DNA of 6,398 nt, taken from the IMG/VR virus record IMGVR_UViG_3300023312_000117, positions 1 through 6,398 of that record; one strand, written 5' to 3'. Below the pieces are notes generated by a model that searched no databases, was not told the origin of the DNA, and worked only from the letters and a program-made list of their open reading frames with translations. Both the position numbers and the translations under genes were made by a program. This DNA is from a virus. Taxonomy: Duplodnaviria > Heunggongvirae > Uroviricota > Caudoviricetes. Numbering within the stretch: position 1 is the stretch's first letter; each line of letters begins with the position of its first letter. Positions 1 through 6,398 of this stretch are shown piece after piece.

Positions 1-177
1 ACGCTGACGCATCTGCATGTCAGTAATTGCCGCGTTCGCCAGCTTCAGTTCTCTGGCATTTTTGTCGCGCTGGGCTTTGTAGGTAATGGCGTTATCACGG
101 TAATGATTAACCGCCCATGACAGACAGACGATGATGCAGATAACCAGAGCGGAGATAATCGCGGTTAATCTGTTCAT
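1..177 (-). CDS. Rz: Rz i-spanin (inner-membrane spanin subunit); only the N-terminal 59 codons are in the window, the 3' end runs off the window start
   Basis: Minus-strand ATG at 177-175 overlaps the R stop (ATGA). Translation [59 protein letters not shown] is near-identical to lambda Rz as recalled, with a hydrophobic N-terminal anchor. The embedded Rz1 would lie beyond the window start. Confidence 0.82.
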
Positions 178-650
178 ACCTCAATCTCTCTGACCATTCC
201 GCCCGCTTCTTTGAATTTTGCAATCAGGCTGTCAGCCTTATGCTCGAACTGACCATAACCAGCGCCCGGAAGTGAAGCCCAGATATTGCTGCAACGGTCG
301 ATAGCCTGACGAATATCACCGCGATCAATCATCGGTAAAGCGCCACGCTCTTTAATCTGTTGCAGTGCCACAGCGTCCTGGCTTTTCGGAGAGAAGTCTT
401 TCAGGCCAAGCTGCTTGCGGTAAGCAACCCACCAGCGTGAAAGAAGTTGATAACGGCCTGCAGCTGTTGATTTGAGTTTCGGGTTTAGCGTGACAAGTTT
501 GCGAGGGTGATCGGAGTAATCAGTGAAGAGTTCTCCACCGACAATAACGTCATAACCGTGGTTACGTGTCGGTTGTCGCCCGTTATCCGTTCCCTCTGAC
601 CATGCCACCATATCAAGGAAAGCTTTACGCTGGGAATTTAGTACCTGCAT
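174..650 (-). CDS. R: Endolysin R, lambda-type lytic transglycosylase (158 aa)
   Basis: ORF 174..650(-) translates to [51 protein letters not shown]..., near-identical to lambda R as recalled, including the catalytic Glu in the WSEGTD motif. ATG at 650-648 is preceded by AAGGAG with a 6-nt spacer. Sits between holin and Rz. Confidence 0.9.
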
Positions 651-653
651 AAA

Positions 654-980
654 TTACTCCTTAGAGCCACCAAACTTGTTACCGATTACTCTCATTGCAG
701 CCCCACGAATAGCATCAACACCGATCAGCCCCACCCCACCACCAATGGCAACAGATAGTGATTTAGGCCATCCGACATACTCAAGAGCGGATGCAAAAGT
801 CAGCGTCAGAGCGCCACAGAGTAGAATTTCGAGTGTTTTTCGCTTCCAGCCGCCACCACCGCCAAAATAGGCAATACGTAAACCAGCCATAACAATCGAC
901 ATAATCACTGCGCCCAGCGGTGTGTCTCCACGCCACCAGCTCTGGACCAACTCCAGCCATGTATTTGGGTTATGAGGCAT
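654..980 (-). CDS. Putative holin (108 aa, about three predicted transmembrane segments, Gly-rich loops); not a lambda S homolog
   Basis: ORF immediately upstream of R on the same strand, with its TAA stop (656-654) inside the R Shine-Dalgarno. Three hydrophobic stretches (LGAVIMSIVMAGLRIAYF, LEILLCGALTLTFASALEYVGW, LSVAIGGGVGLIGVDAI) and a charged C-terminus fit a class I holin topology. Function is inferred from position and hydropathy only. Confidence 0.55.
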   Translation of the reverse strand: MPHNPNTWLELVQSWWRGDTPLGAVIMSIVMAGLRIAYFGGGGGWKRKTLEILLCGALTLTFASALEYVGWPKSLSVAIGGGVGLIGVDAIRGAAMRVIGNKFGGSKE

Positions 981-1120
981 TTGTAGTTATCTCTCACCTC
1001 GCTGATACAGCAGGTGCAAATTGAGGAAACATCATGTACCGCAAATCAGAAGCGGAAACGTCAAAGAAGCCGAGTCAATGGATAACTGCGGGATAGGCTA
1101 GGACCAAGGAATCCCCAGAC

Positions 1121-1154
1121 CCAGAAACGACAAAACCCGCTCGATGGCGGGTTT
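1121..1154 (-). terminator. Candidate intrinsic terminator on the minus strand (possible tR'-like late terminator)
   Basis: Perfect 8-bp inverted repeat AAACCCGC (1133-1140) / GCGGGTTT (1147-1154) with a 6-nt loop. On the minus strand the hairpin is followed by TTTTGTCGTTTC. On the plus strand the trailing sequence is not T-rich, so it is mainly unidirectional. Confidence 0.4.
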
Positions 1155-1199
1155 AAGCTGTGTGGCGAAGTGAGCACACTTAACAGATTACGATATTTT

Positions 1200-1259
1200 T
1201 TGCGTACGCGTTAGTGTTTTGATAGAATTTTCAGCCACATAAAAATTCATTCTTATAAT
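1200..1259 (+). promoter_or_regulatory. Putative sigma70-type promoter region for the plus-strand two-gene operon
   Basis: Candidate hexamers: TTGCGT (1200-1205), 17 bp, TAGAAT (1223-1228); also TTGATA (1219-1224) and a consensus TATAAT (1254-1259) 12 nt before the ATG. A weak SD-like GGGA (1262-1265) lies 6 nt before ATG 1272. Which hexamers are used cannot be decided from sequence. Confidence 0.25.
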
Positions 1260-1271
1260 TCGGGATATATA

Positions 1272-2447
1272 ATGGATATAACTTGTTTAGAATGTGGCAA
1301 TGTTCTTGACGACCCAACTGTAGCTTGCGATAAATGCGGTGCCACGCCTCATGTTGTAGTGCTGGGCAAACAATCGTACTTTCCTATTGGTGCTGTAACA
1401 GCAAATCTTGAAAAAAATGATTCAAGAGCATTTGATTATCGATTAGGTGAAGTTTGGGATCTAAAAAATGAAGTCACATCTGAATTCATAACCAGAATTG
1501 AGAAAAAATTTAGCCGAAAAAACAAATTTCATAACTTCCTAGACTCAGATCACAACCCTTCATCCATTCCTACGATCCTAAAAAAATACATTAATAAGAA
1601 TAATGAATTCATTGATTTATCTAGAGCTATAATAGAGAAGCTTAAACATAATGCTAATAACGAATCGAGAGTTGCCCAACTTCAGGGGGGGAGCGTTGTT
1701 TTCATCCACTATAAGTCTACCGAACCAGAGGATTTGGGGAAACTTCTAATCGTAATGGTTGATAAACAAAGCGCCTATGACTTTGATTCGGATAAGTTGA
1801 CCCCAACAAGATTAAATCCAATTAATACCGATGCCTTACGGCAGGCTGCGATGTTCGATTTAACTTTATTCGAAGCCAGTTATCCAGAAAACAAGGGTGA
1901 CTCATATGTACATTTCTTGCAAGGTAAATCTAAAAGCGATTTTTTCAAAGACTCATTAGGTTGCCGACATGATTCGGACAATAAAAGAAGCATTCAGCAA
2001 TTATTCAGTGCTATAGATATTTTTGCTAGTAAAAACTCACTCGGTCGTGTACTGCGTGATACTATTGACAATGAAGTTAAATCCTTACTGGAAAAAAAAT
2101 CAAAAGATAAACACGGAAATAAGTCCGTTAAGATAGAGGATATTTCAAAAATAATTGACTCATGCCTGACTGATTCACACAAATGTAAGGGAACGTTTGT
2201 CGATTTTGTTAATCTTAATGGTTTCCAGATTGACCCTCAATTTGAACCAACTCCTAAAGCAGCTGAAAGCGCGCTTACAATTGAAGTGGCAGATAACGAC
2301 AATAATTTTAAGTTGAAAATAATGCGTGGAGCTATTGGAGACGAAAAGTCAAATAAGCCTGTAATTCTCACTGACAACAAATGCGAAATTGTGATAAAAT
2401 TGAGTCAGGCAAATTATGATGAACTCAAAAGATATAGAGACAGCTAA
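1272..2447 (+). CDS. Gene A: zinc-ribbon plus NA37-family (YejK/NdpA-like nucleoid-associated protein) domain protein, 391 aa
   Basis: ATG start, long ORF in AT-rich DNA. N-terminus has a Cys4 zinc-ribbon pattern, CLECG...CDKCG (Cys 5, 8, 19, 22). The central region GGSVVFIHYKS...LLIVMVD...NPINTDALRQAAMFDLTLFE...YVHFLQGKSKSDFFKDSLG aligns by eye with E. coli YejK as recalled (GGFVLFCHYRY...LLVAVLS...HADIVARIDLTEWE...[22 protein letters not shown]). Confidence 0.75.
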   Translation: MDITCLECGNVLDDPTVACDKCGATPHVVVLGKQSYFPIGAVTANLEKNDSRAFDYRLGEVWDLKNEVTSEFITRIEKKFSRKNKFHNFLDSDHNPSSIPTILKKYINKNNEFIDLSRAIIEKLKHNANNESRVAQLQGGSVVFIHYKSTEPEDLGKLLIVMVDKQSAYDFDSDKLTPTRLNPINTDALRQAAMFDLTLFEASYPENKGDSYVHFLQGKSKSDFFKDSLGCRHDSDNKRSIQQLFSAIDIFASKNSLGRVLRDTIDNEVKSLLEKKSKDKHGNKSVKIEDISKIIDSCLTDSHKCKGTFVDFVNLNGFQIDPQFEPTPKAAESALTIEVADNDNNFKLKIMRGAIGDEKSNKPVILTDNKCEIVIKLSQANYDELKRYRDS

Positions 2448-2449
2448 TA

Positions 2450-3664
2450 ATGACAATTGCTGATGACTTATCAAGATTAGCGCAGATTATTAACGGAGCC
2501 TCAAGCAGAGTTGAGGGCTACTACACTGTCATAAGTCTTGAAGAAAGCATTGTTATTGTAAATAGTTCTGAAATAATTAGACTGTTACAATCTATAGGTT
2601 ATAAAAAGGCAACAACCTGCATCGAAAATAATGAAATTTGGCTAGATCGCCAAGCTTCATCTTGGGATGATGCTATAATTTATGAGAATGTTGAGTCTTT
2701 TTGGTCTAGAGTAAACACCCAAAACGCTCTTCCGAAAAATTATATCATCGGAACGCCGTTAATACTCCCTACTTCTAAGAATGAAAGCATCGAAAAAATC
2801 CATATTTTCTTTATGTGGAAAGATATCCTTTCATTAATTGCTGATCATCATAACAGTGACTGCTCTGTCTTATTTTTCACCAATGAAGACAAAAGTTATA
2901 CAGTCGAACTCACGCATTTTTTACAATATAGCGAGATTAATCGCTTATCGAACTCGTCTCTTAAATATGAAATTATAAAGGAGCTTCTCGACACAATAAA
3001 AATCAATGATTTACACAAAAGCGAGCGCAAGCTCGTTATACGCTCAGCCATAAACGAAGTATTTAAAGCAAATGGTACGTTCAATTTCTTTGACTTGCTT
3101 AACTCTACTGAACTCGTCAGGAAAAAATATGATGAACTATATGAGATTTACACAAAGAGGTTTTCTGTAAATAAAATTCTTAACGAACTCGATGAGAAAA
3201 ATCTTGAGTTCACGAGTAAAATTAACGAATTCATATCATCTAATCAGACAAAAGCATTGACTATTCCCGGTGCATTAATAGCAGCTGGTGGCTTAGTGAA
3301 GGCTAATGAAACAACCGAAGCAATATTGATTATCGCAGGACTTTGGATGATAAAAAAAGTCAATTACATTTCTATTGAGATATTCAATGAAACATTCGAC
3401 AACTTACGTTCTCGAGTGGAGTCCGCTTTCGATAAGTATTTAAAGTTTGAAGAAAATAAAGAAATCAAAGATAATGCAGATAGTATTAAGAGTAGCATTA
3501 CAGGTTTGATTGATAAAGCTAAAAAAAGGATGAGAACTGTTAAATATCTCGCATCAGCCATGTTTTATGGAGGCCTTATTTACGTTGGATATAAACAGTT
3601 CCCAGTCTTTTTTGAAAAATCGGCAGTAAATCTATTTTATTTTTTATGCCATACTATAAGCTAA
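2450..3664 (+). CDS. Gene B: uncharacterised 404-aa protein with C-terminal hydrophobic (putative membrane-associating) segments; candidate effector partner of gene A
   Basis: ATG at 2450 lies 2 nt after the gene A stop (TAATAATG), implying an operon. Same AT-rich composition. Hydrophobic stretches near the C-terminus: ALTIPGALIAAGGLV, AILIIAGLWMI and YLASAMFYGGLIYVGY. No catalytic motif recognised. The 3' end overlaps the 3' end of Q convergently by 21 bp. Confidence 0.7.
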   Translation: MTIADDLSRLAQIINGASSRVEGYYTVISLEESIVIVNSSEIIRLLQSIGYKKATTCIENNEIWLDRQASSWDDAIIYENVESFWSRVNTQNALPKNYIIGTPLILPTSKNESIEKIHIFFMWKDILSLIADHHNSDCSVLFFTNEDKSYTVELTHFLQYSEINRLSNSSLKYEIIKELLDTIKINDLHKSERKLVIRSAINEVFKANGTFNFFDLLNSTELVRKKYDELYEIYTKRFSVNKILNELDEKNLEFTSKINEFISSNQTKALTIPGALIAAGGLVKANETTEAILIIAGLWMIKKVNYISIEIFNETFDNLRSRVESAFDKYLKFEENKEIKDNADSIKSSITGLIDKAKKRMRTVKYLASAMFYGGLIYVGYKQFPVFFEKSAVNLFYFLCHTIS

Positions 3665-4000
3665 CATTGCTAAACAGCCGTCAACAAACCCCATTGCAGT
3701 TTGCAGTTCCTTCCTAATTGTGCCATCAGAGCATTTTCTCTTCTTCGCAATAGTGCGTAATGAGATACCGATAACAAAGTGGGCGATGATGAGCTCATAT
3801 TCCTCTGGTTTATACCTTCTCAACCGAGCCACACAACTGTCTATCATGATGCCTTCGTCATCATCACACTGAATCCGTGACTTTTTGCCATGAGGTAAAA
3901 GTCCCTTGAAACCAGCCGCTATCGGCTGCCAGTCCACTCCGCTATTGTCTGAAGCAGCCCAAGCTCCCCAACGATCCATTACTTCATACATATCACGCAT
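3644..4000 (-). CDS. quuD: Late-gene antiterminator Q-like protein (QuuD/phage 82-type Q family), 118 aa from ATG 4000
   Basis: Translation MRDMYEVMDRWGAWAASDNSGVDWQPIAAGFKGLLPHGKKSRIQCDDDEG...CSDGTIRKELQTAMGFVDG matches the DLP12 QuuD-type Q pattern as recalled. ATG 4000-3998 has GGAG 7 nt upstream; the longer TTG start at 4054 in the ORF track is less likely. Lies between rusA/ylcG and the lysis genes, the expected Q position. Confidence 0.78.
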   Translation of the reverse strand: MRDMYEVMDRWGAWAASDNSGVDWQPIAAGFKGLLPHGKKSRIQCDDDEGIMIDSCVARLRRYKPEEYELIIAHFVIGISLRTIAKKRKCSDGTIRKELQTAMGFVDGCLAMLAYSMA

Positions 4001-4084
4001 CAACTTTCTCCACAAAATCAGGCCAGAACGCCAATTACAAGCAAAAATCAACAAAACAGTATTAGTTGATTGTTATCTCTGACT

Positions 4085-4225
4085 TCATACTCCTGCTCCT
4101 GTCAGGGTTTTGGCGTAATTCTTCAGTATTCGGTAATCGGTCAAAACAGAACCGGGGAAACGATATAAGCGCAGACGCCCCCAGCGGTGGCGAAGAAATT
4201 CTGCCATATTAAACTCAAACATCAT
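4085..4225 (-). CDS. ylcG: YlcG-like small protein (46 aa, DUF3950 family)
   Basis: Hand translation of the minus strand gives [49 protein letters not shown] at 4225-4223 overlaps the rusA stop (ATGA). Not in the ORF track, presumably below its length cutoff. Matches the DLP12 gene order rusA-ylcG-quuD. Confidence 0.6.
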
Positions 4226-4584
4226 TCATTCCCCATTTCGGTGATGGTCAGTTCCAGCCTCCCACCTTTGGTAACAGGCATCTTCACAACGCGGTAATCA
4301 ACGACCTGAGCATCATCCAGCCAGAAACCTGCTTTAGTGAGTGCGTCAAAAGCGGCTTTTTGCAGATTATCCAGGTCACGGCGACGGCGATCCGGCATGT
4401 GGCACTCAATGCGGATTTTCACAGGCATAGCTAGGCCGATATCCAGCATTGCGTTTTTAATGATTCGGGCGACGTTATCGCGGTATGCCTGCCCCTCTGC
4501 GCTGACGTGCGTGCGCCCGCGATTATGGCGGTAATAGCGATTATTGCTCGGAGGCCAGGGTAATGTGATGCTGTAGGTATTCAC
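4222..4584 (-). CDS. rusA: RusA Holliday-junction resolvase (120 aa)
   Basis: Translation [120 protein letters not shown] matches E. coli K-12 DLP12 RusA as recalled. GTG start at 4584 overlaps the ybcO stop. Confidence 0.92.
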
Positions 4585-4871
4585 GCCTTAATAACCCCCT
4601 CTTTCAGCCACATAACCTGTGTTCTCGCCATACCTTCCAGCGCGCATTCTTTTGCATATGCAGCATCGACAAAATGTGTGCGGCGGTCGATTTCGTCGTG
4701 GCAGGCAGAACATGCAATGGTGGCAATCAGGTCTGGCGGTTTGATACCGGTACCGCACAATCCAGCCAGCCGGATATGTGCCAGTACAGACGTTTCAGAA
4801 TTGCCATTACATACGCCAGGGATTCTTACCTGGCATTCCCGACCACGCGCTGCTTTTCTCAAATCAGCCAT
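4581..4871 (-). CDS. ybcO: YbcO-like protein (DUF1364; putative nuclease), 96 aa from ATG 4871
   Basis: Translation from the internal [99 protein letters not shown], matches DLP12 YbcO as recalled. GGAGG lies upstream of ATG 4871; the TTG at 4910 is an unlikely extension. Confidence 0.82.
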
Positions 4872-5034
4872 GATTCCTCCTTGCTGCCAGTCGCAACCAT
4901 TTTTTATCAACCAGGCTAGCGGTATATCCGAGCAGTGTTGGTATTTCGGATGGCTTCGGCTCAGGCTTACGCTTACGACGATTTGATACTCTGTAGATGT
5001 GTCCGTTCATGACACGAATAAGCGGTGTAGCCAT
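4864..5034 (-). CDS. ninE: NinE-like small protein (56 aa)
   Basis: Hand translation gives [59 protein letters not shown] at 5034-5032 overlaps the ninB stop (TAATG) and the 3' end overlaps the ybcO start. Position between ninB and ybcO matches DLP12. Below the ORF-track length cutoff. Confidence 0.75.
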   Translation of the reverse strand: MATPLIRVMNGHIYRVSNRRKRKPEPKPSEIPTLLGYTASLVDKKWLRLAARRNHG

Positions 5035-5489
5035 TACGCCTCCTGCTTGTCACGGAGCAGCTGGAACTCGCAGCTCTGCGGAATAGTCAGGTGGCAGCCA
5101 ATATTCACCGCCCAGGCTTCAACCTTACACAGGAAGACATACATCTCTCCGGTATCAAGATCGGAGGTATGGCGTAACGACTGGATAGTGGTGATATCAC
5201 CGGTTACGACATCAACCAGGTCTTTGGTTTCATAACCGAGATATGTGTGTTTGAGAGCATCTTTTACCCAAGCTGGAGTGGCGAACGTTTTACCCCTGTT
5301 GATGAGGTATTCACTGATTTCGCTGTACCACATGTGGCTGAGTGCATTCTGGGAAAGACTGCGTTTCTCACGCCACGGTTTAAGCACCATGCGAAAGCAT
5401 TTGCCCTCCTCCAGATAAGGCTGGATCTGCCGACCGATAGCGGTGAAGTTACCGCGATGTAATTTGATGCCATCTTGTGGGAGATTCAC
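5034..5489 (-). CDS. ninB: NinB-family recombination protein (YbcN-like), 151 aa
   Basis: Translation [62 protein letters not shown]... matches DLP12 YbcN / lambda NinB family as recalled. GTG start at 5489 is preceded by GGAGGTGAAGC. Confidence 0.86.
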
Positions 5490-5685
5490 GCTTCACCTCC
5501 GCAGAGGTCAAACGCTGGATGCAAAAAATCGCAGGTGCATCTCTGCATCTGTGAAGGGAGAAGAGAGTTTGGATTGTATGTGCGCATAAACGTCCCCGTT
5601 TAGCGCAGAAGTCACCGGAGTTGTTCAGGCTCCGATGACATGATTATGGCAAAATGATTATGTAAAATCAAAAGCCAAAAAACAA

Positions 5686-6375
5686 TTATGGTTTATTTTC
5701 TAGCTCTGATTTTTTGAAAGCTTCTATCAGACGATTAGCATCTTCTGTACCACCAGGAAGCACGTTTGATTTTTTAAGAATATACGGTGGGAACTTTGTG
5801 GTTAAATATTCATGCTTAAACCATCTACGAAACTCTGACAATGCAGAATCAGGATAGGCATTAATGATCTGAGGATTGGAACTTGCCTGAAGAAAATCTT
5901 CAGGGTAATAATGCTCACAGTCTACTCTTTCTCCAAATTCTGTTGCTAACCCCTTTGCTTTCCAGTGACGCGCCCAGCAAGAACCAACACTGCCATCAGG
6001 TACGGTATGCTGATTAATCGCTAATCCAGCATTGATGAGATCTACCATCATACCTGCAATTTCATTAAATATAATGAAATACCCATCAGGTATGGTTCCC
6101 TTATCTTTTAATAAAGATACTCTGTCATGGTAATGCCTCCACGGGTCCTCCGGTTGATATTTTAGCGCCTCGTATATAAATGTCTTGAGGCCTTTTTTAG
6201 CAAGCTCTCTGTAAGATCTAATTGCAGTCTCACTTTCTGCTTGTTTTGCTTCAAAGGCATAGTATTCAAGTATAGCCATGCATACAACATCTGGATAAGC
6301 ATGGTACTCAACACCATTTCGAATTATTGGTATATAAAGTTTTTCATTAGACTGGCCCCCTGAATCTCCAGACAA
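5686..6375 (-). CDS. Uncharacterised AT-rich ORF (229 codons if started at TTG 6375); family not recognised
   Basis: Long minus-strand ORF upstream of ninB with GC visibly lower than the nin genes (spot counts ~27-40% on 60-nt lines). The ORF opens at TTG (6375-6373) directly after an in-frame TGA; the first in-frame ATG is at codon 33 (6279) and has no obvious SD. The start codon is therefore uncertain. Confidence 0.5.
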   Translation of the reverse strand: MSGDSGGQSNEKLYIPIIRNGVEYHAYPDVVCMAILEYYAFEAKQAESETAIRSYRELAKKGLKTFIYEALKYQPEDPWRHYHDRVSLLKDKGTIPDGYFIIFNEIAGMMVDLINAGLAINQHTVPDGSVGSCWARHWKAKGLATEFGERVDCEHYYPEDFLQASSNPQIINAYPDSALSEFRRWFKHEYLTTKFPPYILKKSNVLPGGTEDANRLIEAFKKSELENKP

Positions 6376-6380
6376 CCAAT

Positions 6381-6398
6381 ATCACTTAAATAAGTGAT
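6381..6398. promoter_or_regulatory. 18-bp perfect palindrome ATCACTTA-AA-TAAGTGAT; candidate operator or protein-binding site at the window edge
   Basis: Positions 6381-6398 read ATCACTTAAATAAGTGAT, identical to its reverse complement. It lies immediately 5' of the start of the 229-codon ORF. The ATCAC half-site resembles lambdoid repressor operator half-sites. Truncated by the window end, so context is unknown. Confidence 0.3.

What the first reader, a model, noticed from the sequence alone, without database searches (positions are those of the whole stretch)
981..1271. Late-operon regulatory architecture is split by the insert; a terminator-like hairpin lies 140 bp upstream of the holin
A strong hairpin (8-bp stem, 1133-1154) followed by a T-rich tract on the minus strand sits where a tR'-like late terminator is expected. 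Q, however, is 2.5 kb away across the opposite-strand operon. Either pR'/qut lies next to Q and late transcripts read antisense through the whole operon, or the insert separated Q from a pR' located near 1155-1270. Both arrangements would couple prophage induction to expression or silencing of the inserted genes.
Basis: inference. Interest (0 to 1): 0.45.

Follow-up and report, generated by a model that had tools for sequence, protein, structure and literature searches.

The report
Late-gene promoter-terminator cassette beside the holin
The hairpin is the stop signal of a compact 100-base late-gene switch; in this group of prophages the switch normally sits next to the lysis genes, and a slot for foreign, mostly defence-type genes separates it from its activator gene Q.

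Summary
The hairpin is real: minus strand, stem 1154-1133, then a T-rich tail. It is the best terminator-like site in the region. It is the 3' end of a 98-bp conserved cassette (minus strand, 1220 to 1123). The cassette holds a Q-clade-specific GC dyad, an invariant TAnnnT -10 (TAATCT, 1190-1185), a conserved start-site block and the terminator at +25..+46.

In every related locus the cassette lies downstream of a Q antiterminator of the phage 21 family (PF06530) on the same strand. In 13 loci it directly follows Q, as in phage 21. In about 80 cargo classes or species-level loci, 0.6-3 kb of low-GC genes on the opposite strand lie between Q and the cassette. Here that cargo is the DS-1 defence pair.

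In E. coli K-12, whose DLP12 prophage carries the same cassette, published Cappable-seq data place a start site exactly 7 nt after the -10.

The first alternative is rejected. Late transcripts fire away from the insert, so the proposed coupling to late transcription does not follow.

This is an ordinary member of a known kind of switch. It has some undescribed family features.

The parts
3644..4000 (-). Q antiterminator gene, 118 aa, phage 21 family
   Evidence: It matches Pfam PF06530 at 160 bits over residues 1-115 of 118. phmmer finds Q21 structures 6p18 and 6jnx at E = 0.0013. Q21 itself matches PF06530 at 87 bits. RefSeq annotates it as an antiterminator Q family protein.
1272..3664 (+). 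Cargo in the slot between Q and pR': the DS-1 anti-phage pair, DS1_1 at 1272-2447 (YejK/NA37-like) and DS1_2 at 2450-3664 (membrane-associated tail)
   Evidence: NCBIfam NF053868 scores 451 bits against a cut-off of 330, and NF053869 scores 375 against 315. DS1_1 also matches Pfam NA37. GC is 0.31-0.40, against about 0.50 in the flanks. The DS1_2 stop overlaps the Q stop by 21 bp.
1219..1259 (+). Candidate promoter of the DS-1 operon, back to back with the cassette: either TTGATA 1219-1224, 16 bp, AAAAAT 1241-1246, or TATAAT 1254-1259
   Evidence: This rests on a consensus scan and direct reading of the sequence. It is inferred and no start site is mapped. The segment 1221-1271 travels with DS-1 in other genomes.
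1123..1220 (-). The whole conserved late cassette: pR', candidate Q-binding site, start site and tR'
   Evidence: nhmmer with the cassette profile finds one hit, 1220 to 1123, and no second copy even at E <= 10. The window sequence was part of that profile. Homology between different cargo classes begins near 1220 and ends near 1132.
1202..1209 (-). GC-rich dyad GCGTACGC at -31..-24, followed by an A tract. This is the candidate Q-binding element
   Evidence: The dyad type follows the Q clade. Window-type Q goes with GCGTACGC in 49 of 49 species-level loci. L011-type Q goes with GCGGWCCG in 14 of 15. The same holds across 21 cargo classes, where QuuD goes with ACGTACGT. The predicted recognition helix differs between the clades. 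No binding was tested.
1185..1190 (-). -10 hexamer TAATCT of pR'
   Evidence: The hexamer reads TAnnnT, with T1, A2 and T6 fixed and the interior free, in 60 E. coli variants. In the 63 cross-genus cassettes it was located by a pattern that requires TAnnnT, so invariance there is partly by construction. In K-12 the equivalent hexamer TATGCT lies 7 nt before the Cappable-seq start site and 16 bp after TTTACG.
1176..1181 (-). Start-site block AAGTGT (family consensus AAGAGT, -3..+3), with the predicted start at 1177-1179
   Evidence: The start is placed by homology to the K-12 start site at U00096.2 576452, which is L004 position 3730. The block G.TAAG|AGTGGT is at least 90% conserved in 63 cassettes. 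Its role, pause element or otherwise, is unresolved.
1133..1154 (-). tR' hairpin at +25..+46: 8-bp stem with 5 G-C pairs and a 6-nt loop
   Evidence: A hairpin at the same relative position occurs in 44 of 63 cross-genus cassettes, with other stem sequences.
1121..1132 (-). T-rich tail TGTCGTTTCTGG. It is also the recombination joint to the lysis module
   Evidence: In L010 homology stops at 1132, and other late regions begin inside the T tract.
981..1120 (-). Leader of the lysis operon, which belongs to the lambda-type holin module
   Evidence: Among phage records it is shared only with the SfII and SfIV group. It has no significant fold, z = -0.43, and no promoter-like site on the minus strand.
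174..980 (-). First late genes: lambda-family holin at 654-980 and endolysin at 174-650
   Evidence: The holin matches TIGR01594 and PF05106. RefSeq annotation agrees.

Best explanation
The hairpin at 1154-1133 (minus strand) is tR', the terminator of a compact Q-dependent late cassette at 1220 to 1123. RNA polymerase starts at about 1178 from a weak promoter. That promoter has the -10 TAATCT at 1190-1185 and a poor -35. Without Q, the polymerase stops at the hairpin after about 50 nt, so the holin, endolysin and downstream late genes stay silent. After induction, Q is made from its gene 2.4 kb away. It acts in trans at the cassette, probably through the GCGTACGC dyad at 1209-1202. It converts the polymerase to a terminator-resistant form, as shown structurally for its relative Q21, and the polymerase reads through into the lysis genes. 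The DS-1 genes occupy a cargo slot between Q and pR'. This slot is filled in most phages of this Q family, always on the opposite strand, so late transcription does not cross them. Shown here: the anatomy, its conservation, its linkage to Q, and a mapped start site in the K-12 homologue. Inferred: Q binding at the dyad, pausing, termination and read-through.
For: (1) The hairpin plus T tail is the top terminator-like site. (2) In 132 E. coli and IMG/VR loci with the cassette core, every locus with enough upstream sequence has a PF06530 Q upstream on the same strand. In 7 loci Q directly abuts the cassette (61-67 nt from the end of the Q match to the cassette core). The others hold 21 different cargo classes of 0.6-2.9 kb. 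(3) In 80 Q loci from other Enterobacterales species, the cassette lies downstream on the same strand in 64: 6 adjacent to Q and 58 with cargo. (4) Phage 21, whose Q is in the same Pfam family, has the same layout within 85 bp: -35, Q-binding element, -10, start site, pause element, and a terminator ending at +50. (5) I predicted the start site from the invariant TAnnnT. Cappable-seq then showed a triphosphate 5' end at that exact base in K-12 (U00096.2 576452, + strand, log2 enrichment 4.8). With 16,359 clustered start sites genome-wide, a hit at one chosen base is expected at about 0.002. (6) A terminator hairpin at +25..+64 is present in 44 of 63 cassettes against 3% of control windows, and the stems differ in sequence. 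(7) The dyad type tracks the Q clade and its recognition helix. (8) Module joints fall at the two ends of the cassette, as expected for a unit that must stay with its Q. (9) There is no second cassette near Q.
Against: No transcript data exist for this prophage. The K-12 start-site signal is weak: relative read score 1.7 against a threshold of 1.5. The window's -35 is poor (CTAACG at 18 bp), and the promoter scan does not call the site. At the K-12 start position the window has T instead of A. No clear -10-like pause element lies at +2..+7 as in lambda and phage 21. The only candidate, AAGTGT, straddles the start site. The T tract is short (UUUU G UCG UUU), so termination may be partial. 19 of 63 cross-genus cassettes show no hairpin by my simple rule. 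The 3'-end datasets I could search gave nothing for the K-12 site. The association between Q clade and dyad could reflect linkage alone.
Confidence: 0.8

Rival explanations
1. pR' and qut lie directly downstream of Q, and late transcripts read antisense through the DS-1 genes before reaching the hairpin and the holin.
For: This is the textbook position of pR', for example in phage 21. One weak promoter-like match lies on the minus strand at 3374-3347, but the total number of such matches is no higher than in shuffles: 12 against 10.2.
Against: The Q stop overlaps the DS1_2 stop by 21 bp, so there is no intergenic space. Cargo differs between phages right up to the end of Q, so no conserved element can lie there. 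The conserved cassette is on the holin side in all cargo-bearing loci, and its K-12 copy has a mapped start site.
Confidence: 0.03
2. The main product of the cassette is the roughly 50-nt terminated RNA itself. It would be a regulatory small RNA made in lysogens, like StxS of Shiga toxin phages. The strong conservation of +1..+25 would then reflect RNA function rather than Q loading.
For: pR'-tR' short RNAs are made by lambda, 21, 82, phi80 and P22, and StxS is functional (PMC7547250). The transcribed block AGTGGT.AC..G.CAC....CTTA is conserved across genera.
Against: There is no Rfam match. No conserved upstream RNA hairpin was seen by eye, and the fold of +1..+64 is only z = -1.8. The K-12 start-site signal is weak. 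This reading adds to the Q switch and does not replace it.
Confidence: 0.1
3. The lysis genes are driven mainly by a host-controlled promoter, as reported for DLP12 essD with sigma E. On this view the cassette is a relic with no role in this prophage.
For: A review text states that the DLP12 lysis operon is controlled by a Q-type antiterminator, RpoE and Hha (PMC7918800). K-12 has a strong start site 371 nt upstream of the cassette, near a sigma E-like match.
Against: That upstream K-12 sequence belongs to the nmpC cargo and is absent from the window. The window has no promoter-like site between the hairpin and the holin. The cassette is conserved across genera together with an intact Q, which argues against decay. 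I could not read the original DLP12 papers.
Confidence: 0.05
4. The hairpin is only a general insulator. It would shield the lysis genes from stray transcription coming from upstream and would not be part of a Q switch.
For: Any terminator at this position has this effect. Early transcripts that leave Q would also meet it.
Against: This does not explain the fixed spacing of the hairpin to a conserved -10 and start site. It also does not explain the strict linkage to one Q family or the Q-clade-specific dyad.
Confidence: 0.02

Closest known systems
Phage 21 late regulatory cassette (pR'21, Q-binding element, sigma-dependent pause element, tR'21)
   Same: The Q proteins are in the same Pfam family (PF06530). 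Both have a compact unit of about 85-100 bp. In both, a Q-specific element lies between the -35 and -10 positions, the terminator ends near +50, and the first late genes are the lysis genes (PMC6606751; bioRxiv 10.1101/651190).
   Different: There is no DNA similarity. Phage 21 has a consensus -35 (TTGACA), a direct repeat TGAGCA x2 at -27..-12 and a pause element TAAGCT at +2..+7. The window has a poor -35, a palindromic GCGTACGC at -31..-24, and its only -10-like element at -3..+3. In phage 21 the cassette starts 7 nt after Q. Here it lies 2.4 kb away.
DLP12 / qsr' late region of E. coli K-12 and the sequenced phage 434B (quuD - nmpC - essD)
   Same: The Q family, the cassette (about 87% identical over 77 bp), and the layout of Q, opposite-strand cargo, cassette and holin are all the same. 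The window's prophage sits at the DLP12 site (emrE-ybcK).
   Different: The cargo is the porin gene nmpC instead of DS-1. The dyad is ACGTACGT with a better -35 (TTTACG). The holin is of the S21 type, not the lambda type. No late promoter is annotated in the 434B record.
Lambda pR' - 6S RNA - tR'
   Same: The logic is the same: a promoter that initiates without Q, an early terminator, and Q acting in trans to allow read-through into S, R and Rz. This is established knowledge, summarised in PMC9191641 and PMC7547250.
   Different: The Q family differs. The lambda RNA is 194 nt, from my own memory; here about 50 nt is predicted. In lambda the pause element sits in the first transcribed bases, with pause capture at 13 nt and pausing at +16/+17. 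In lambda pR' directly follows Q.
StxS, the pR'-tR' small RNA of Shiga toxin phages
   Same: It is a short RNA produced in lysogens by termination at tR' (PMC7547250).
   Different: StxS is processed from a longer transcript and binds Hfq. Nothing of this kind is known or tested for the RNA predicted here.

Membership tests
Q-dependent late cassette (pR' - qut - tR') of lambdoid phages | Lies between Q and the late (lysis) genes on the same strand | tested here: met
   Q is at 3644-4000 (-), the cassette at 1220-1123 (-) and the holin at 654-980 (-). The same order holds in all related loci.
Q-dependent late cassette (pR' - qut - tR') of lambdoid phages | Directly follows the Q gene (textbook layout) | tested here: not met
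   2.4 kb of opposite-strand genes lie in between. The feature is met in 7 + 6 related loci. It is a habit of the model phages, not a functional requirement, because Q acts in trans.
Q-dependent late cassette (pR' - qut - tR') of lambdoid phages | A promoter that initiates without Q | tested here: inconclusive
   The -10 TAnnnT is conserved. The K-12 homologue has a triphosphate 5' end 7 nt downstream. The window's -35 is poor, and this prophage has no data.
Q-dependent late cassette (pR' - qut - tR') of lambdoid phages | A Q-binding element specific to the cognate Q | tested here: inconclusive
   The dyad at -31..-24 co-varies with the Q clade: 49/49 and 14/15 loci, and across 21 cargo classes. 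There are no binding data, and linkage is not excluded.
Q-dependent late cassette (pR' - qut - tR') of lambdoid phages | A sigma-dependent pause element (-10-like) in the first transcribed bases | tested here: inconclusive
   No conserved nAnnnT lies at +2..+30. AAGAGT (window AAGTGT) at -3..+3 is conserved but lies 5 nt upstream of the lambda and phage 21 position (PMC9191641).
Q-dependent late cassette (pR' - qut - tR') of lambdoid phages | An intrinsic terminator shortly after the start site | tested here: met
   The hairpin is at +25..+46 with a T-rich tail. It is conserved in position but not in sequence. Termination efficiency is not testable here.
Q-dependent late cassette (pR' - qut - tR') of lambdoid phages | Q-dependent read-through of the terminator | not testable with these tools
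   This needs a reporter assay or in vitro transcription.
Q21-type antiterminators (Pfam PF06530) | Sequence membership and relation to the solved Q21 protein | tested here: met
   The window Q scores 160 bits on PF06530. It finds Q21 chains at E = 0.0013. Q21 scores 87 bits on the same model. The fold was not predicted.
DS-1 anti-phage system (the insert) | Both proteins above the NCBIfam equivalog cut-offs, and adjacent | tested here: met
   NF053868 scores 451 against 330 and NF053869 scores 375 against 315. PMC13092281 lists a YejK nucleoid-associated domain among domains newly validated in defence. PADLOC 2023 has no model for it.
pR'-derived regulatory small RNAs (StxS, lambda 6S) | A stable short RNA with a trans-acting function | not testable with these tools
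   Only the predicted length of about 50 nt and the conservation of +1..+25 are available. There is no Rfam match.

The most novel reading that the evidence does not exclude
In this branch of the Q21 family, the late switch may work differently from the lambda and phage 21 paradigm. Q is a sigma-region-4-like protein. It would bind a clade-specific dyad that occupies the -35 position of a promoter lacking a -35. It would load onto the polymerase while that enzyme is still an initial transcribing complex, or is paused at about +8 to +10. That stall would be set by the strongly conserved start-site block TAAG|AGTGGT, and no separate pause element would be needed at +2..+7. Separately, the slot between Q and pR' may be a general hotspot for lysogen-expressed cargo on the opposite strand, largely defence genes. 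Cargo transcripts would run antisense into Q, acting as a lock on lysogeny. At induction, early transcripts would override them and switch off the prophage's own defence.
Probability: 0.15. Interest if true: 0.65.

Novelty: new member of a known kind. Interest (0 to 1): 0.35.

Why it matters
For this window, the result settles how the prophage's lysis genes are wired. They are controlled by a Q-responsive promoter and terminator right next to them, and the defence genes sit outside the late transcript.

More generally, Q plus this 100-bp cassette gives two fixed anchors around a variable slot. In 57 of 58 species-level loci and in 21 of 21 E. coli cargo classes, the slot holds low-GC genes on the opposite strand. 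Most of these genes are unnamed. That makes the slot a practical place to look for new prophage-borne defence systems.

The cassette also offers candidate natural variants for studying Q specificity: three dyad types paired with three Q clades.

Tried and rejected
- **RNA and tRNA scans.** Rfam at a permissive threshold gave only two chance snoRNA-like matches, and ARAGORN found no tRNA.
- **Second cassette or promoter next to Q.** None was found.
- **Alignment to phage 21.** Aligning the cassette to the phage 21 cassette showed no DNA homology, only the same layout.
- **Pause element.** I looked for a -10-like pause element at +2..+30 and found none conserved. An upstream -10 reading (hexamer TATCGT at 1195-1190) was rejected because that hexamer is not conserved in other variants.
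- **Upstream RNA hairpin.** A small RNA hairpin at +2..+17 is present in some sequences but was not conserved by eye.
- **Lysis leader.** The leader at 981-1125 has no significant structure.
- **3' end evidence for K-12.** The held supplementary files of two Term-seq papers had no entry for the site. A third start-site paper is not held.
- **DLP12 promoter papers.** The two original papers (PMID 25998262 and 23378572) are not held. What I say about them rests on a citing sentence and on memory.
- **Literature on the hotspot.** One search for a published description of this hotspot found nothing specific. That does not prove absence.
- **Stem covariation.** I did not run a formal covariation count on the terminator stem. 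Any alignment of such short, indel-rich hairpins would have been fitted to the structure. I used enrichment over control windows instead.

Full report
**Layout of the window**

The window is part of a lambdoid prophage at the DLP12 site of E. coli (emrE-ybcK side). The late direction is the minus strand. Reading in that direction, it holds:
- a BstA-like gene, ybcN/ninB, ninE, ybcO, rusA and ylcG;
- the antiterminator gene Q (3644-4000);
- two + strand genes (1272-3664);
- a lambda-family holin (654-980) and an endolysin (174-650).

The two + strand genes are the DS-1 anti-phage pair. Both exceed the NCBIfam equivalog cut-offs. The first carries a YejK/NA37 domain. PMC13092281 lists such a domain among those newly validated in defence. 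GC falls from about 0.50 to 0.31-0.40 across this pair.

**The observation**

The hairpin exists as described. Its stem is AAACCCGC/GCGGGTTT at 1133-1154, with a 6-nt loop. On the minus strand it is followed by TGTCGTTTCTGG.
- It ranks first among terminator-like sites between 600 and 4300, where such sites are about three times more frequent than in shuffles.
- It folds at -12.5 kcal/mol, z = -2.3.
- The + strand has no T tract after it.
- The stated distances to the holin and to Q are correct.

**What the hairpin belongs to**

Comparison with other genomes shows that the hairpin is the 3' end of a conserved unit.
- *Homology limits.* SfII and SfIV phages and hundreds of E. coli genomes share window 981 to about 1220 but carry different genes beyond that point.
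- *Locus L011.* This one is decisive. A Q gene of the same family ends, and within a few bases the homologue of window 1215 to 1132 begins, with no insert.
- *Locus L010.* Here Q, DS-1 and window 1271 to 1132 are joined to a quite different, Stx-phage-like late region. Homology stops at 1132, the first base after the stem.

So 1220 to 1123 is a module with sharp joints on both sides. A profile of it finds only this one copy in the window (the window sequence was part of that profile). The module matches in 3930 of 5426 complete E. coli genomes. It also matches in phage 434B, mEp332, cdtI and several Stx phages.

**Linkage to Q, and the cargo slot**

I fetched 120 viral contigs that hold the exact cassette core and analysed them together with the earlier loci.
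- Every locus with enough upstream sequence has a PF06530 Q upstream on the same strand.
- In 7 loci Q directly abuts the cassette (61-67 nt from the end of the Q match to the cassette core).
- The remaining loci hold 21 distinct cargo classes of 0.6-2.9 kb. All have their main reading frames on the opposite strand, and their GC is 0.32-0.42.

A scan of one genome per species gave 80 Q loci from Enterobacter, Serratia, Yersinia, Xenorhabdus, Erwinia, Pantoea, Providencia and other genera.
- The cassette was found downstream of Q on the same strand in 64 of them.
- In 6 it is adjacent to Q, and 58 carry cargo.
- 57 of those 58 have opposite-strand reading frames. Median GC is 0.35.
- The cargo comprises 49 protein families among 99 proteins.

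**Anatomy of the cassette**

The consensus from 63 species-level cassettes, from -45 to +32, is a.aaaa....taacgcGTaCGCAaaaa.tat.gTA...TG.TAAG|AGTggT.aCt..G.cac.....T.a. It has four parts.

1. *A -10 hexamer.* TAnnnT has T1, A2 and T6 fixed and a free interior, which is the signature of a -10 element. This holds in 60 E. coli variants. In the cross-genus set the hexamer was located by a pattern that requires TAnnnT, so invariance there is partly by construction. In the window it is TAATCT, 1190-1185.
   - The DLP12 type has TTTACG 16 bp upstream, and L051 has TTTACA.
   - The window type has only CTAACG at 18 bp.
2. *A GC-rich dyad at -31..-24, followed by an A tract.* In the window it is GCGTACGC, 1209-1202.
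3. *A start-site block.* G.TAAG|AGTGGT is conserved at 90% or more.
4. *A hairpin with a T run starting at +25 to +42.* It is present in 44 of 63 cassettes, against 37 of 1158 control windows. The stems differ in sequence: AAACCCGC, AAACCTCGC, GCCTCGGC, GAAATCCTGC and AAGAAGCCTCAC. A structure conserved in position while its sequence changes is what a working terminator should look like.

**Experimental anchor**

From the -10 I predicted the start site at the seventh base after the hexamer. In K-12 that is NC_000913.3 577229, or 576452 in U00096.2. I checked the 777-base shift using the essD coordinates.

The Cappable-seq table of PMC4782308 lists a + strand start site at exactly 576452. Its relative read score is 1.7 and its log2 enrichment is 4.8. 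The signal is weak. However, with 16,359 clustered sites in the genome, a hit on one chosen base is expected at about 0.002.

The site lies on the holin side of the K-12 cargo gene nmpC.

**Comparison with phage 21**

Q of the window and Q21 both belong to PF06530, and they match weakly by direct comparison. The annotated phage 21 record places these features within 85 bp after Q:

| Feature | Phage 21 |
|---|---|
| -35 | 7 nt after the Q stop |
| Q-binding element | two 8-bp subsites, -27..-12 |
| -10 and start site | annotated |
| Pause element | TAAGCT at +2..+7 |
| Terminator | ends at +50 |

The window cassette has the same size and the same order of parts, but no sequence similarity to it. 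Q21 forms a nozzle on the RNA exit channel that prevents terminator hairpins from forming (10.1101/651190; PMC6606751). I infer the same mode of action here.

**Candidate Q-binding element**

The dyad type follows the Q clade without exception in E. coli:
- window-type Q with GCGTACGC;
- L011-type Q with GCGGTCCGC;
- QuuD with ACGTACGT.

The association is almost without exception across genera: 49 of 49 and 14 of 15 loci. This holds even where the Q proteins are only 58-65% identical and where the cargo between Q and the cassette differs.

The predicted second helix of the helix-turn-helix also differs between clades. It reads SDGT(I/V)RKE(L/M)QTA in one clade and (D/S)EKxIRIE(I/M)QMA in the other.

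This fits a specificity determinant. Co-inheritance is not excluded, and no binding was tested.

**What remains unclear**

I found no conserved -10-like element at +2..+30.

The conserved AAGAGT (window AAGTGT, 1181-1176) has the A2/T6 signature and, as I recall it, resembles lambda's AACGAT. It lies at -3..+3. In lambda, pause capture occurs at 13 nt (PMC9191641). An element 5 nt further upstream would act at about 8 nt, which is still within initial transcription.

Three readings remain open:
- this block is an unusually early pause element;
- the initial transcribing complex is itself the loading substrate;
- the block has some other role.

The T tract in the window is short, so termination may be incomplete.

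pR' fires away from DS-1, so late transcription neither expresses nor silences the insert.

Two other features stand out. The stop codons of Q and DS1_2 overlap by 21 bp, and there is no terminator-like site between the two genes on either strand. DS-1 transcripts should therefore extend antisense into Q. Early transcripts leaving Q should likewise extend antisense into DS-1. Any coupling to induction would come from the early operon, not the late one. This is inference only.

**Verdict**

The hairpin is a tR'-type terminator, and the late unit is split by cargo. This is an ordinary member of a known kind of switch, in its family's usual arrangement.

The family-level features appear undescribed in what I could read:
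- the cassette consensus;
- the pairing of dyad type with Q clade;
- the strict opposite-strand cargo slot.

They are of moderate interest.

Noticed in passing
window 1272-3664 (+): The insert is the DS-1 anti-phage pair (NF053868 and NF053869). A DS-1-like pair is also the most frequent cargo at this slot across genera, including Shigella, Yersinia, Xenorhabdus, Rosenbergiella and Pseudescherichia (8 of 58 loci by protein clustering).
   Followed up: partly
window 3644-3664: The Q stop (minus strand) and the DS1_2 stop (plus strand) overlap by 21 bp, and no terminator-like site lies between the two genes. The convergent transcripts should therefore run into each other's genes.
   Followed up: partly
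window 3644-3680 and Q genes of L137-L216: The last residues of Q, after a conserved GF(I/V)xG motif, differ with each cargo class. The cargo joint therefore lies inside the 3' end of Q, and each cargo module brings its own Q tail.
   Followed up: partly
loci L137-L216, between Q and the cassette: The slot holds 49 protein families in 58 species-level loci. Many are two-gene modules: a soluble protein of about 300 aa plus a membrane protein of about 170-190 aa. Of 10 representatives, none reached an NCBIfam cut-off: one had a weak small-alarmone-synthetase-like match and one a weak DS1_1-like match. Of 6 tested against PADLOC, 2 matched only candidate systems (PDC-M53A, PDC-S33).
   Followed up: partly
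L004 (K-12) 3359, = U00096.2 576081 (+): K-12 has a strong Cappable-seq start site (score 90). It lies 33 nt beyond the nmpC start codon and 371 nt upstream of the cassette start, on the essD strand, next to a GAACTA-16-TCACT match that resembles a sigma E promoter. It may be the published essD promoter. The sequence is specific to the nmpC cargo and absent from the window.
   Followed up: no
IMG/VR loci such as L093, L102, L114, L026 (DLP12-type cassettes): About 25 DLP12-type copies carry GCTGG instead of GCGGG in the 3' arm of the terminator. This lowers the hairpin energy from -11.5 to -5.3 kcal/mol, so the terminator is probably leaky in these copies.
   Followed up: partly
window 5686-6398 (-): A BstA-like defence gene (PADLOC BstA, E = 7.9e-93) runs toward the right end of the window. 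Most E. coli genomes that match 1-6347 at 100% identity do not match 6348-6398, so the sequence changes inside this gene.
   Followed up: no
window 1153-1171 (minus strand +8..+26) and cross-genus cassettes: The transcribed part shows conserved AC, CAC and CTTA at about 8-nt spacing (+8/9, +15-17, +22-25). No function is assigned.
   Followed up: no
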